In this document: positions 1-6,965 of the stretch, in pieces
Position numbering within the stretch: the stretch's first letter is position 1
Layout of the letters: each line of letters begins with the position of its first letter
Assembly (NCBI GenBank): GCA_964652315.1
Contig: CAZZBU010000006.1
Span: 1 to 63,445, forward strand
Direction of reading: 5' to 3'
Source of the DNA: an uncultured Bacteroidales bacterium
Lineage (GTDB): Bacteria; Bacteroidota; Bacteroidia; Bacteroidales; JAAAOM01
Length of the DNA stretch: 63,445 nt
Position numbers and translations under genes: made by a program
The notes under the pieces: model-generated
Databases searched by the model: none
What the model saw: the letters and a program-made list of their open reading frames with translations, nothing else
What the model was told of the DNA's origin: nothing

Positions 1-87
1 GGGTGCTTTCAAACCTAAGTATTACCTAATTAAATAAACCTATACCTATATGTAAGAGAAGGGTATACTTTATTTATGAAAAAAGTA
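1..87 (-). ncRNA. Candidate sigma54-dependent sRNA with four UAGGU repeats (3' end outside the window)
   Basis: ACCTA on the plus strand at 13-17, 24-28, 38-42 and 44-48. No usable ORF in the window. Ends in GAAAGCACCC, possibly the first arm of a terminator. Confidence 0.4.
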
Positions 88-95
88 ACATTTTA

Positions 96-116
96 AATAC
101 ATATCCCGTGCCAAAA
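96..116 (-). promoter_or_regulatory. Candidate sigma54 (-24/-12) promoter firing leftwards
   Basis: Minus strand reads TTGGCACGGGATATGTAT: TGGCACG, then GT at the exact -13/-12 spacing (GG at 112/111, GT at 100/99). The canonical -12 is GC, so this is a variant. Predicted TSS about 87. Confidence 0.6.
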
Positions 117-200
117 AATGTAAAAACATAAATAACAGCTTATTACTATAATTTTGCATAACCGCCACTGAAAAAAAATGTCCGGTAACAATACACACCC

Positions 201-216
201 TGTTCGTTTTCGAACA
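201..216. promoter_or_regulatory. Palindromic TGT-N10-ACA enhancer-like site
   Basis: TGTTCG-TTTT-CGAACA is a perfect inverted repeat about 90-105 nt upstream of the -24 element, a typical position for a sigma54 activator site. Confidence 0.55.
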
Positions 217-5153: not shown

Positions 5154-6965
5154 TTAATAGTCTATTGTGGCATTTAACATTAAATTTTCAACCCATTTCC
5201 TTGACACTGTGTCGGTCAGGTATTTTTCAATCATCAGACTGGCTATGGGTGCAGCATAAGTAGAACCCCACTTGCCATGTTCAACATAAACCGCTATCGC
5301 AATCTGCGGATTTTCCCTTGGAGCAAAAGCCGAAAATACCGAATGGTCTTCTCCATGTGGATTTTCAGCAGTTCCGGTTTTACCGCAAACAACAATATCA
5401 TTAATTTTTGCAATGCGTGAAGTGCTTCCTTCCCCTCCATTAACTGCCATTTCCATTCCATCCAAAACTACCGGAAAATGCGAAGAATCAATTGTAGTAA
5501 AATGGGGGGTTGTAAACTTCCGGCTAAGCGTATCAATCCCTTCGATTTTTTTAACTACATGAGGGGTGTAATAATACCCTTTGTTTGCCAGGGCTGCAGT
5601 CATATTAGCCAGTTGAAGCGGAGTAATGCCCAACTCTCCCTGCCCGATGGCCAGCGATATGATGGTGAGGGCTTTCCAGCGGCCTTCGCCATAATATCTG
5701 TCATAATAAGAGGTATTGGGTACATAACCGCTTAATTCATTTGGGAAGTCGCTACCCAATGGTCTGCCAAAGCCAAAAGAGAGAAGGTGATCACGCCAGT
5801 TGTTGAATGCCATAGGTACTGAAGGATAATCCCGGTCTTCGATGATGTTCCGGAAAATGTGACAGAAATAGGCATTGGATGATTTTTGAATGCCGCTTAC
5901 CATATCAACATACCCGTATACATGATCCTTCACTGTTACACCTCTGGCATAATAAGCCCCATCAACATAATATGTTGCTTTCGGATTTACCACGTTTTCC
6001 TGAAGGCCTATCAGGGCATTTATCATTTTAAAAGTAGAGCCGGGCGGATATTGCGCCATTAAAGCGCGGTTGAAAATCGGCTTTAGTGTATCGCTTTGCA
6101 GTTTTCGGTAGTTCTTGGTCCGTTCCCGGCCAACCAGAAGCGAGGGGTCATAATTTGGTGCTGTTACCATGGCCAGAATCTCTCCGGTTTGAGGTTCAAT
6201 AGCCACGATGCTGCCACGGAAGTCTTCCATCAGCTTTTCACCATAAGTCTGTAAGTCGGCATCAATCGTAAGGGTGAGGTTTTTCCCAACCACTGCCGGC
6301 TCATTATACCTGCCGCCTTCATATACTCCCTGCACCCTTCCGTGTACATCCACATTATAAATTTCACGTCCTTTTTCGCCGCGAAGGTATTCTTCATAGG
6401 TTTTTTCAATACCACTGATTCCAATATAGTCGCCCATGCTGTAATAATCATTTTCCTCTATGATTTTATCATCTACTTCACCTACATATCCGATGAGGTG
6501 GGCAGCAATGTCGCTCGAGTATTTTCGTAATGTCCTTGGTTGAACATAAAAGCCCGGAAAACGGTAAAGTTTTTCCTGAAGTTCGGCATAGGTTTCAGCA
6601 GACACCTGTTTGATAAACGGTTCTCTCCGGTAGCGCGGCATAAACGAGCGTTCGATGCCGTTAACCAGAAATTCCCTGTCGATATTTAAAATGGTACAAA
6701 GTTCGGCTGTATCAAATTCCTGCAATTGATAAGGAGCAATCACTAAATCATAGGCAGCCTGATTGTATACCAGCAATTCACCATCGCGGTCAAAAAATAA
6801 GCCGCGGGCCGGAAAAAGTGTAACCACCCGCCTGGAATTGTTTTCAGCTGAAAGGCGATAGGATTCATCGATCACCTGAAGGTAAAATAACTTCAGAATG
6901 AATACCAGGGCGATCATAATTACGATTCCTGCAATAGTATATTTTCTTACCGAGAATTGCTCCAT
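5154..6965 (-). CDS. mrdA: Penicillin-binding protein 2
   Basis: PPGSTFK (SxxK), SSN (SxN) and GKTGTAE (KTG); operon context. Confidence 0.95.
   Translation of the reverse strand: MEQFSVRKYTIAGIVIMIALVFILKLFYLQVIDESYRLSAENNSRRVVTLFPARGLFFDRDGELLVYNQAAYDLVIAPYQLQEFDTAELCTILNIDREFLVNGIERSFMPRYRREPFIKQVSAETYAELQEKLYRFPGFYVQPRTLRKYSSDIAAHLIGYVGEVDDKIIEENDYYSMGDYIGISGIEKTYEEYLRGEKGREIYNVDVHGRVQGVYEGGRYNEPAVVGKNLTLTIDADLQTYGEKLMEDFRGSIVAIEPQTGEILAMVTAPNYDPSLLVGRERTKNYRKLQSDTLKPIFNRALMAQYPPGSTFKMINALIGLQENVVNPKATYYVDGAYYARGVTVKDHVYGYVDMVSGIQKSSNAYFCHIFRNIIEDRDYPSVPMAFNNWRDHLLSFGFGRPLGSDFPNELSGYVPNTSYYDRYYGEGRWKALTIISLAIGQGELGITPLQLANMTAALANKGYYYTPHVVKKIEGIDTLSRKFTTPHFTTIDSSHFPVVLDGMEMAVNGGEGSTSRIAKINDIVVCGKTGTAENPHGEDHSVFSAFAPRENPQIAIAVYVEHGKWGSTYAAPIASLMIEKYLTDTVSRKWVENLMLNATIDY

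What the first reader, a model, noticed from the sequence alone, without database searches (positions are those of the whole stretch)
1..216. Sigma54-type promoter plus enhancer driving a short non-coding transcript with four UAGGU repeats
Seen: TTGGCACG at -24 with exact spacing to GT at -12 (112-99, minus strand), and a perfect TGTTCG-N4-CGAACA palindrome at enhancer distance (201-216). The predicted transcript from about 87 has no ORF but four UAGGU motifs in 36 nt, then a GC-richer arm running off the window. Four copies in 36 nt is conspicuous. Inference: a sigma54/bEBP-activated sRNA. Caveats: the -12 is non-canonical (GT), one TAGGTTTG also fits the sigmaA -7 consensus, and the region could be the 5' UTR of a gene outside the window.
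Basis: partly seen in the sequence, partly recalled or inferred. Interest (0 to 1): 0.72.

Follow-up and report, generated by a model that had tools for sequence, protein, structure and literature searches.

The report
Sigma-54 small RNA antisense to SusC leader
The flagged stretch is very probably a real, undescribed small regulatory RNA gene of an uncultured Bacteroidales bacterium, switched on through a sigma-54 promoter and its enhancer, and its UAGGU repeats match in antisense the start of an outer-membrane nutrient-transporter mRNA, which it therefore most likely regulates, probably by repression.

Summary
TGGCAC-N5-ATGT lies at 113-99 (minus strand), a perfect palindrome at 201-216, and four TAGGT at 48-13. 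That TAGGT cluster is unique in the genome (0.003 expected).

- All three TGTWCG-N4-CGWACA palindromes in the genome sit 98-99 bp upstream of a TGGCAC.
- The same module occurs in 39 of 401 Bacteroidales genomes and never in the control.
- The G at -13 is invariant in 32 of 32 sites, although it was not part of the search pattern.
- rpoN and an NtrC-type activator, whose own efflux operon carries the module, are present.
- Orthologues in two other genera keep enhancer, promoter, core and terminator, with compensatory stem changes.

New here: the roughly 40-nt UAGGU core is antisense to the first 40 nt or so of a SusC-like transporter mRNA leader in all three genera (-37 to -49 kcal/mol, z about -10). 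It is therefore most likely a base-pairing sRNA, not a protein sponge.

A co-oriented lipoprotein gene always follows, so read-through or a leader role remains possible.

The parts
201..216 (.). Enhancer (UAS) site 1: perfect palindrome TGTTCG-N4-CGAACA, which has the TGT-N10-ACA form
   Evidence: Seen. It is one of only three TGTWCG-N4-CGWACA sites in the genome, and all three lie 98-99 bp upstream of a TGGCAC. The orthologue in G001 has TGTACG-N4-CGTACA at the same 98-bp distance. The module is found in 39 of 401 genomes of the order and 0 times in the control.
179..197 (-). Enhancer site 2: a weaker TGT...CGGACA half-palindrome 3 bp downstream of site 1
   Evidence: In 32 aligned modules, a T-G-T block and a CG(T/A)(T/A)CA block recur about 20-37 nt after the start of site 1.
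99..113 (-). Sigma-54 promoter TGGCAC-GGGAT-ATGT (-24/-12 elements)
   Evidence: Seen. The G at the canonical -13 position is present in 32 of 32 modules although it was not in the search pattern, and the -12 base is mostly T or A. The T-rich run before TGGCAC is also conserved. rpoN is present.
85..88 (-). Predicted transcription start (+1 at about 87). This is an inference, not a measurement.
   Evidence: It lies 12 nt downstream of the -12 position, the standard sigma-54 spacing (established knowledge). No RNA data were available.
1..87 (-). Body of the roughly 110-nt non-coding RNA. The last 22 nt or so lie on contig C199, beyond the window start.
   Evidence: There is no conserved ORF. 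No Rfam family matches. The fold z-score is -4.25. Orthologues exist in G001 and G002.
55..64 (-). Conserved C/U-rich block ACCCUUCUCU
   Evidence: It is identical in G001 and reads ACCCCUUAUCU in G002.
13..52 (-). Antisense core holding the four UAGGU repeats. It is complementary to the 5' end of a SusC-like mRNA leader.
   Evidence: The cluster is unique in the genome. The best non-self match in the genome is C87:247-278, on the strand opposite to susC. The duplex energy is -39.9 kcal/mol with z -9.4. The same relation holds in G001 and G002.
1..10 (-). 5' arm (GAAAGCACCC) of the intrinsic terminator. The loop, the 3' arm and the U-tract lie on contig C199 at 5499-5528.
   Evidence: The orthologous stems differ in sequence but still pair. 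Comparing own with G001, G-C becomes A-U, C-G becomes U-A and A-U becomes G-U. G002 has AAAAAAACCGCU/AGCGGUUUUUUU.

Best explanation
A two-component, NtrC-type enhancer-binding protein binds the tandem TGT-N10-ACA sites at 216-179. The best candidate is the REC-AAA-HTH_8 regulator at C27:27684-29060, with its kinase next to it. It activates sigma-54 RNA polymerase at TGGCAC-N5-ATGT (113-99). Transcription runs leftwards from about 87 and mostly stops at the intrinsic terminator that straddles the window start, which gives a non-coding RNA of about 110 nt.

The conserved core of this RNA (52-13, with the UAGGU repeats) is the antisense image of the first 40 nt or so of the long 5' leader of a SusC-like TonB-dependent transporter mRNA (gene C61:26-3322, leader on C87). 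A shorter match, UAGGUUUAU against AUAAACCUA, lies 16 nt before that gene's start codon.

The RNA therefore most likely acts in trans by base pairing. It would lower synthesis or stability of this outer-membrane transporter when the same regulator turns on a HlyD-ABC-TolC efflux operon and several small exported proteins.

Shown: sequence anatomy, conservation, the regulon-wide promoter and enhancer grammar, and complementarity in three genera.

Inferred: transcription, the TSS, the identity of the activator, the susC TSS, and the direction of regulation (repression).
For: Promoter and enhancer:
- All 3 genomic palindromes are 98-99 bp from a TGGCAC. Chance for this is of the order of 1e-8, given 1828 TGGCAC sites in the genome.
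- The module occurs in 39 of 401 genomes of the order and 0 times in the control.
- The -13 G is invariant in 32 of 32 sites.
- rpoN and 10 full-length enhancer-binding proteins are present.
- In L073-75 a REC-AAA-HTH activator is encoded divergently from the module. Its best homologue here, on C27, sits divergent to a HlyD-ABC-TolC operon that carries an imperfect copy of the module at the same 99-bp spacing.

sRNA:
- The terminator is completed on C199.
- Orthologues in G001 and G002 keep enhancer, promoter, core and terminator, with compensatory stem changes, while the flanks diverge.
- There is no conserved ORF and no Rfam hit.
- In other families the same module drives stand-alone terminated non-coding RNAs followed by convergent genes. 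One genome has three sibling copies.

Target:
- In each of the three genera the best non-self match of the sRNA lies on the strand opposite to a susC-like gene. The E-values are 1e-3 in the own genome, 1.9e-6 in G002 and 2e-6 within the G001 locus.
- That match starts 3-4 nt after the gene's conserved TAGYTTTG -7 box.
- Duplex energies are -39.9, -36.7 and -48.6 kcal/mol, with z -9.4 to -10.9.
- Lineage-specific changes are mirrored on both partners. Examples are UAUAGG/CCUAUA in own and G001 against AUUAGG/CCUAAU in G002, and UUAGGCA/UGCCUAA in G002 only.
- Precedent: FopS sRNAs of B. thetaiotaomicron repress SusC translation under membrane stress (PMC11697453).
Against: - There are no expression data.
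- The -12 element lacks the canonical C.
- Only three orthologues exist, because the family has just four genomes. No formal covariation statistics are therefore possible.
- The mirrored changes between the sRNA and the susC leader could reflect gene conversion between two homologous DNA copies, rather than selection for pairing.
- Cross-genome duplex energies are not uniformly worse than cognate ones. The own sRNA against the G002 leader gives -45.2.
- A genome-wide duplexfold screen of start regions was no better than screens with shuffled sRNAs.
- A co-oriented MORN_2 lipoprotein gene follows the terminator in all three genera, with no perfect sigmaA -7 box in between. The RNA may therefore also, or instead, be a leader.
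- Orthology of the three susC genes is only moderate, at 33-36% identity.
Confidence: 0.7

Rival explanations
1. The RNA is mainly a cis-acting 5' leader of the downstream MORN_2 (YwqK-like) lipoprotein gene. The sigma-54 promoter would be that gene's promoter, and the terminator would be an attenuator whose read-through is controlled, for example by a protein that binds the UAGGU repeats next to the stem.
For: - The order sRNA, terminator, MORN_2 lipoprotein gene is conserved in three genera, although the gene on the other side differs.
- No perfect TAnnTTTG box lies between the terminator and the start codon in any of the three.
- Small exported proteins are the typical cargo of this sigma-54 module in other genomes.
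Against: - Only 33% of genes with long upstream regions have a perfect -7 box, so its absence says little.
- The terminator stems differ in sequence between genera while the core is invariant. No conserved RNA antiterminator pairing exists.
- The 140-240 nt between terminator and gene are not conserved.
- In other families the module drives stand-alone terminated RNAs with a convergent gene downstream.
- This model does not explain the 40-nt antisense match to the susC leader.
Confidence: 0.15
2. The RNA is a protein sponge. Its repeated UAGGU motifs would titrate an RNA-binding protein, such as an RRM-type RbpB-like protein, in the way that CrcZ or RsmY/Z titrate theirs.
For: - Four copies of one pentamer occur in 36 nt, a cluster unique in the genome.
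- G/U-rich repeats (UUGGUUAA) also occur in the unrelated sigma-54 sRNAs of G272.
- RbpB binds FopS and GibS in B. thetaiotaomicron.
Against: - The number of repeats is not conserved: 3 in G001, and 2 perfect plus 2 degenerate in G002.
- What is conserved is a contiguous core whose spacers also match the susC leader in antisense. A sponge model does not predict this.
Confidence: 0.08
3. The repeat block is a DNA-level element and no functional RNA is involved. It could be an operator bound by the same regulator at the susC promoter and here, or the TAGGTTTG at 19-12 could be a sigmaA -7 box for the lipoprotein gene.
For: - The block occurs at exactly two loci per genome.
- TAGGTTTG fits the TAnnTTTG consensus.
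- Parallel changes at the two loci could reflect co-evolution with a protein.
Against: - The TAGGTTTG copy is absent in G001 and altered in G002.
- A start from that box would fall inside the terminator stem.
- At this locus the block always lies between a conserved sigma-54 promoter and a conserved terminator, and it is always antisense to susC (3 of 3).
- This model does not explain the enhancer grammar.
Confidence: 0.05

Closest known systems
Qrr1-5 of Vibrio (LuxO, sigma-54)
   Same: A response-regulator-type enhancer-binding protein and sigma-54 drive short, terminated, trans-acting sRNAs. In one Bacteroidales genome (G272) the analogous sRNAs are also multicopy siblings.
   Different: The phylum differs. 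No Hfq is known in Bacteroidota (general knowledge). There is no sequence relation and no Rfam hit. The target class is an outer-membrane transporter rather than quorum-sensing regulators. The -12 element is WWGW.
FopS family and GibS of Bacteroides thetaiotaomicron (PMC11697453)
   Same: They are Bacteroidales sRNAs built as a single-stranded seed plus a terminator. They repress SusC-like transporter mRNAs by base pairing and are induced by membrane-assaulting stress such as bile. Here the sRNA is co-regulated with an efflux operon.
   Different: FopS uses canonical sigmaABfr promoters, has a 5'-terminal seed of about 21 nt and binds at the start codon. This RNA has a sigma-54/enhancer promoter and an internal core of about 40 nt that pairs with the extreme 5' end of a leader about 260 nt long. 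cmscan found no match to any Rfam family.
GlmY (GlrK/GlrR, sigma-54) and CrcZ (CbrA/CbrB, sigma-54)
   Same: The cascade is the same: two-component system, enhancer-binding protein, sigma-54, sRNA. CrcZ also carries repeated short motifs.
   Different: Both act by sequestering proteins (RapZ; Hfq/Crc). Here the repeats are part of an antisense match to an mRNA.
SigmaE-dependent MicA, RybB and MicL of enterobacteria
   Same: The logic is the same. An envelope-related stress regulon includes an sRNA arm that shuts down synthesis of outer-membrane proteins.
   Different: The sigma factor and the organism group differ, and those sRNAs use short Hfq-dependent seeds. The stress signal here is only inferred from co-regulated efflux and exported-protein genes.
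DonS-type cis-antisense sRNAs of Bacteroides PULs (general knowledge)
   Same: They show long antisense complementarity to the 5' region of a susC-like mRNA.
   Different: Those are encoded opposite their target. This one is encoded elsewhere, with its own sigma-54 promoter.

Membership tests
Sigma-54 (RpoN)-dependent promoter | GG at -24 and GC at -12 with fixed spacing (TGGCAC-N5-TTGC) | tested here: inconclusive
   TGGCAC and the spacing are exact, and the G at -13 is present, but -12 is T rather than C. Across 32 modules the -13 G is 32 of 32, and the -12 base is C in only 2. This is a consistent lineage or regulon variant.
Sigma-54 (RpoN)-dependent promoter | rpoN and enhancer-binding proteins encoded in the genome | tested here: met
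   PF04552 hits C126 at 181 bits. PF00158 gives 10 full-length hits. The C27 protein is REC + Sigma54_activat + HTH_8.
Sigma-54 (RpoN)-dependent promoter | Upstream activator sites about 80-150 bp from the promoter | tested here: met
   The palindrome centre is 98 bp upstream. The same distance, plus or minus 3, is seen in 47 sites of 39 genomes, against 0 in the control.
Sigma-54 (RpoN)-dependent promoter | Transcription abolished without RpoN or the activator | not testable with these tools
Rho-independent (intrinsic) terminator | G+C-rich hairpin followed by a U-tract, kept in relatives | tested here: met
   The terminator has a 10-bp stem, a 4-nt loop and GCUUUUUU. G001 and G002 have different stems that still pair, each followed by U7.
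Trans-acting base-pairing sRNA | Conserved complementarity to a target mRNA in several species | tested here: met
   Cognate duplexes with susC leaders in three genera have z -9.4 to -10.9 and are always antisense. Whether regulation follows is not testable here.
FopS / GibS (Rfam) | Match to the family covariance model | tested here: not met
   cmscan against all 4227 Rfam 15 models at E up to 10 on the intact G001 orthologue, and at E up to 1 on the window, gave only sub-threshold matches to unrelated families.
FopS / GibS (Rfam) | SigmaABfr promoter and a 5'-terminal seed | tested here: not met
   The promoter is of the sigma-54 type. The pairing core starts about 35 nt into the RNA.

The most novel reading that the evidence does not exclude
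Bacteroidales would possess an order-wide sigma-54 regulon of the efflux or envelope type, defined by a TGT-N10-ACA enhancer pair about 99 bp from a TGGCAC-N5-WWGW promoter. Its RNA arm would have been invented repeatedly, with unrelated sRNAs (single, sibling triplets, a 300-nt RNA) plugged into the same module in different families. In this family the sRNA would have been born by inverted duplication of its own target's promoter-proximal leader. That would explain why the similarity runs from the susC -7 box region, now the terminator, through 40-50 nt of leader. This mode of gene birth is known for plant microRNAs.
Probability: 0.3. Interest if true: 0.8.

Novelty: new member of a known kind. 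Interest (0 to 1): 0.62.

Why it matters
RNA-based regulation in Bacteroidota is little explored. The characterised sRNAs (GibS, FopS, MasB, DonS) use the housekeeping sigma factor, and the signals that induce them are mostly unknown.

A sigma-54/enhancer-dependent sRNA would give a defined, genetically tractable input: one two-component system with a recognisable DNA site. It would also give a concrete output, a SusC-like outer-membrane transporter. That links an efflux or envelope-type response to nutrient-uptake capacity.

My paper searches found no report of a sigma-54-dependent sRNA in Bacteroidota.

The enhancer and promoter grammar derived here can be used directly to find further members of the regulon, coding and non-coding, in hundreds of genomes.

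Tried and rejected
- Rfam scans of the window end and of the intact G001 orthologue found no family.
- I tried gpsA as a synteny anchor, with one homologue search and four contig look-ups. Relatives have DoxX or ribosomal protein genes upstream of gpsA, so the sRNA is linked to the lipoprotein gene, not to gpsA.
- The genome contigs pattern scan found only G001 plus two chance hits.
- The metagenome scan was wasted. The pattern also matches TAGGTATAGGTTTAGGTATAGGT coding repeats, which are common in marine contigs.
- A duplexfold screen of 3757 start regions gave best scores no better than shuffled sRNAs. Its one suggestive hit was the 5' UTR of the co-regulated C30:25773 gene, but that complementarity is not conserved in G001, so I dropped it.
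- A closing helix GUUAC/GUAAU seen in the single-sequence folds would lie upstream of the predicted TSS in G001, so I do not claim it.
- A 20-nt match of the L067 sRNA in G018 lies in coding sequence and is probably chance.
- MAFFT misaligned the three short orthologues, so I built no covariance model.

Full report
**Where the window lies**

The window is contig C6 of a 294-contig assembly and starts at the contig end. The last 55 bases of contig C199 are identical to window 1-55, and no other contig shares them. I therefore read the two as adjacent. The same gene order in two other genera later confirmed this: sRNA-like region, terminator, MORN_2 lipoprotein gene. The nearest relative with a record title is 'MAG: Bacteroidales bacterium'. 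The GTDB family holds only four genomes, G000-G003.

**Observation**

On the minus strand TGGCAC is at 113-108 and ATGT at 102-99. This gives the canonical GG-to-G spacing, with T instead of C at -12, and predicts a start at about 87. The palindrome TGTTCGTTTTCGAACA is at 201-216.

TAGGT occurs at 48-44, 42-38, 28-24 and 17-13. No other place in the genome has four copies within 40 nt, and about 0.003 such clusters are expected.

The arm GAAAGCACCC at 10-1 continues on C199 as TACC-GGGTGCTTTC-GCTTTTTT, a textbook intrinsic terminator on the minus strand.

The next start codon, of a MORN_2-repeat lipoprotein, lies 187 nt beyond the terminator.

**Is the promoter real?**

Genome-wide, TGTWCG-N4-CGWACA occurs three times: here and twice on C30. 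Each copy has a TGGCAC-N5-ATG(T/A) with centres 98-99 bp apart. With 1828 TGGCAC sites in 8.5 Mb of both strands, three out of three at that spacing is of the order of 1e-8 by chance.

Searching 401 genomes of the order for palindrome-N84-90-TGGCAC gave 47 sites in 39 genomes. The reversed-pattern control gave none.

I aligned 32 of these sites. The G at the canonical -13 position is present in all 32 although it was not in the pattern. The -12 base is C in only 2 (T in 15, A in 11, G in 4), and a second, weaker TGT...CGWWCA site follows the palindrome. The 'non-canonical GT' is therefore the rule for this regulon, not a defect.

The genome encodes RpoN and ten full-length enhancer-binding proteins.

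In three genomes (L073-75) a REC-AAA-HTH activator gene sits divergent from the module. Its closest homologue here, at 58-59% identity, is C27:27684-29060, which has a kinase gene beside it. It is divergent from a HlyD-ABC-TolC operon whose start region carries TGTCCGATTTCGTACT 99 bp upstream of TGGCACAATAAATGT. This is my candidate activator. Two paralogues, on C2 and C224, cannot be excluded.

**What the module drives elsewhere**

The cargo is mostly small exported proteins and HlyD/ABC efflux operons.
- The two C30 genes have E-x-W-M repeats and no Pfam match.
- A C2 gene has a TonB_C domain.
- This fits published sigma-54 regulons in Bacteroidota, which include ABC-type antimicrobial-peptide transporters, envelope functions and exported proteins of unknown function (PMC12316311, PMC9723704).

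In several families the module drives non-coding, terminated transcripts instead.
- L067 is about 100 nt, and L051/L052 are about 300 nt. Each lies just after an FtsX/MacB permease gene and is followed by a convergent gene.
- L068 is present as three roughly 90%-identical copies in G272, each with its own enhancer pair, TTGGCAC promoter and terminator.

Sigma-54/enhancer-driven sRNAs are therefore a recurrent feature of this regulon.

**Orthologues of this RNA**

G001 keeps TTTTTTGGCAC-N5-ATGT. It keeps a palindrome with a symmetric change (TGTACG-N4-CGTACA) at exactly 98 bp. It also keeps the blocks ACCCTTCTCT, ATATAGGTATAGGTTTATT and TAGGTAATACT, and a terminator whose stem differs but still pairs. 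Two pairs changed on both sides and one on one side.

G002 has TGTTCATTTTCGCACA, TGGCAT-N5-ATGT, the core ACCCCUUAUCU...UUAGGUAUAUUUGUAGGUAAUACUUAGG, and a third, different terminator.

The distance from promoter to core varies by 16 nt, and the flanks do not align. There is no shared ORF, and no Rfam family matches.

In all three genera a MORN_2 lipoprotein gene follows in the same direction. The gene on the other side differs: gpsA in two genera, a T9SS-type protein in G002.

**What the UAGGU core is for**

The best non-self match of the RNA in its own genome is C87:247-278 (88% over 33 nt, E 1e-3). It lies on the strand opposite to a gene that starts at C87:~33 and continues into C61. That gene encodes a 1098-aa SusC-like TonB-dependent transporter (CarbopepD_reg_2 + Plug), followed by a SusD-like gene.

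G001 and G002 each have the equivalent match, again opposite to a susC-like gene.

In all three genera a perfect sigmaA -7 box (TAGCTTTG or TAGTTTTG) lies 3-4 nt before the complementary stretch. Taking the usual Bacteroides spacing, the susC mRNA would begin with the sequence the sRNA can pair with. This susC start site is an inference.

Predicted duplexes span 36-46 nt, at -39.9, -36.7 and -48.6 kcal/mol. Shuffled sRNAs average -8.5 to -12.8, giving z -9.4 to -10.9.

Lineage-specific differences are mirrored on both partners.
- UAUAGG/CCUAUA in own and G001 becomes AUUAGG/CCUAAU in G002.
- G002 alone extends the pairing with UUAGGCA/UGCCUAA and pairs its UUUG spacer with CAAA.

A second short site, AUAAACCUA(AAA), sits 15-16 nt before the susC start codon in all three genera and pairs with UAGGUUUAU. 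The second susC of the same locus (C61:5904) has UUUACCUUUAAACCUAAAU in its start region.

**Mechanism I commit to**

The RNA is a trans-acting antisense-type sRNA that represses this SusC-like transporter. It would do so by occluding the start region, by creating a long duplex at the mRNA 5' end that invites RNase III, or both. It is produced when the efflux-linked two-component system is active.

This parallels FopS in B. thetaiotaomicron, which is induced by bile and represses SusC translation (PMC11697453). The wiring differs (sigma-54 plus enhancer), and so do the RNA family and the pairing geometry.

The mirrored changes could also come from gene conversion between two homologous DNA copies. 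The similarity even extends from the susC -7 box region into the terminator arm, which suggests the sRNA gene arose by inverted duplication of the target's leader.

**Open points**

- No expression evidence could be obtained.
- The conserved downstream lipoprotein gene has no perfect -7 box of its own in any of the three genera. Only a third of comparable genes have one. Read-through expression, or a leader role, therefore remains a live rival.
- The protein-sponge reading is weakened because the copy number of the repeat is not conserved, while the contiguous antisense core is.

**Earlier notes of this scan**

Other agents independently recorded sigma-54-type sRNAs in uncultured Bacteroidales. 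One is an ~87-nt sibling family with its own two-component regulator, probably the G272 family I met. These notes are unchecked AI leads. They suggest the class is widespread but do not count as evidence for this locus.

**Verdict**

This is a new sRNA family of a known kind (sigma-54/enhancer-dependent sRNA), in a phylum where my searches found none published. It comes with a specific, testable target prediction.

Noticed in passing
G272 loci L233, L234, L235 (C295:10328-10414, C265:7322-7408, C55:2643-2729): Three roughly 90%-identical copies of an ~87-nt sRNA. Each has its own TGT..ACA enhancer pair, TTGGCAC-N5-TTGG promoter and terminator. The body carries UUGGUUAA repeats and UAGGUAGGUU. 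This is a Qrr-like sibling family in another Bacteroidales family.
   Followed up: partly
L051 and L052 (G303:C61, G194:C2), about 1600-1930 in locus coordinates: The same enhancer/sigma-54 module drives a conserved non-coding RNA of about 300 nt with a strong terminator. It lies directly after an FtsX/MacB-type permease gene and before a convergent gene.
   Followed up: partly
Own genome C30:24821-26249 (outside the window): Two tandem paralogous secreted proteins (157 and 159 aa) carry 4-5 E-x-W-M repeats and have no Pfam family. Each has its own palindrome and TGGCAC promoter. Homologues in G001 and G002 keep the module.
   Followed up: partly
Own genome C27:26345-32714 (outside the window): A histidine kinase and an NtrC-type activator lie divergent from a HlyD-ABC-TolC efflux operon. 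An imperfect palindrome, TGTCCGATTTCGTACT, sits 99 bp upstream of TGGCACAATAAATGT. This is the likely master locus of the regulon.
   Followed up: partly
Own genome C61:26-13069 (outside the window): The predicted target locus holds two SusC/SusD-like pairs followed by a C10-like peptidase gene. This may indicate peptide or protein uptake rather than glycan uptake. The second susC also has ACCU motifs in its start region.
   Followed up: no
window 201-216 plus CTTTTGGG, + strand: The consensus scan lists the palindrome as a terminator-like site on the + strand. Given its conservation as an enhancer at fixed distance from TGGCAC, this is most likely a coincidence of the palindrome.
   Followed up: yes
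window 1 / contig C199:5529-5583: The assembly breaks inside the terminator region. The two contigs overlap by exactly 55 bases, which looks like a k-mer overlap. C199 carries, downstream on the minus strand, the MORN_2 lipoprotein gene and then HlyD-like and TolC-like genes.
   Followed up: partly
metagenome loci L086-L165: TAGGTATAGGTTTAGGTATAGGT is a common coding repeat in many marine and freshwater metagenome contigs. It is unrelated to this sRNA.
   Followed up: no
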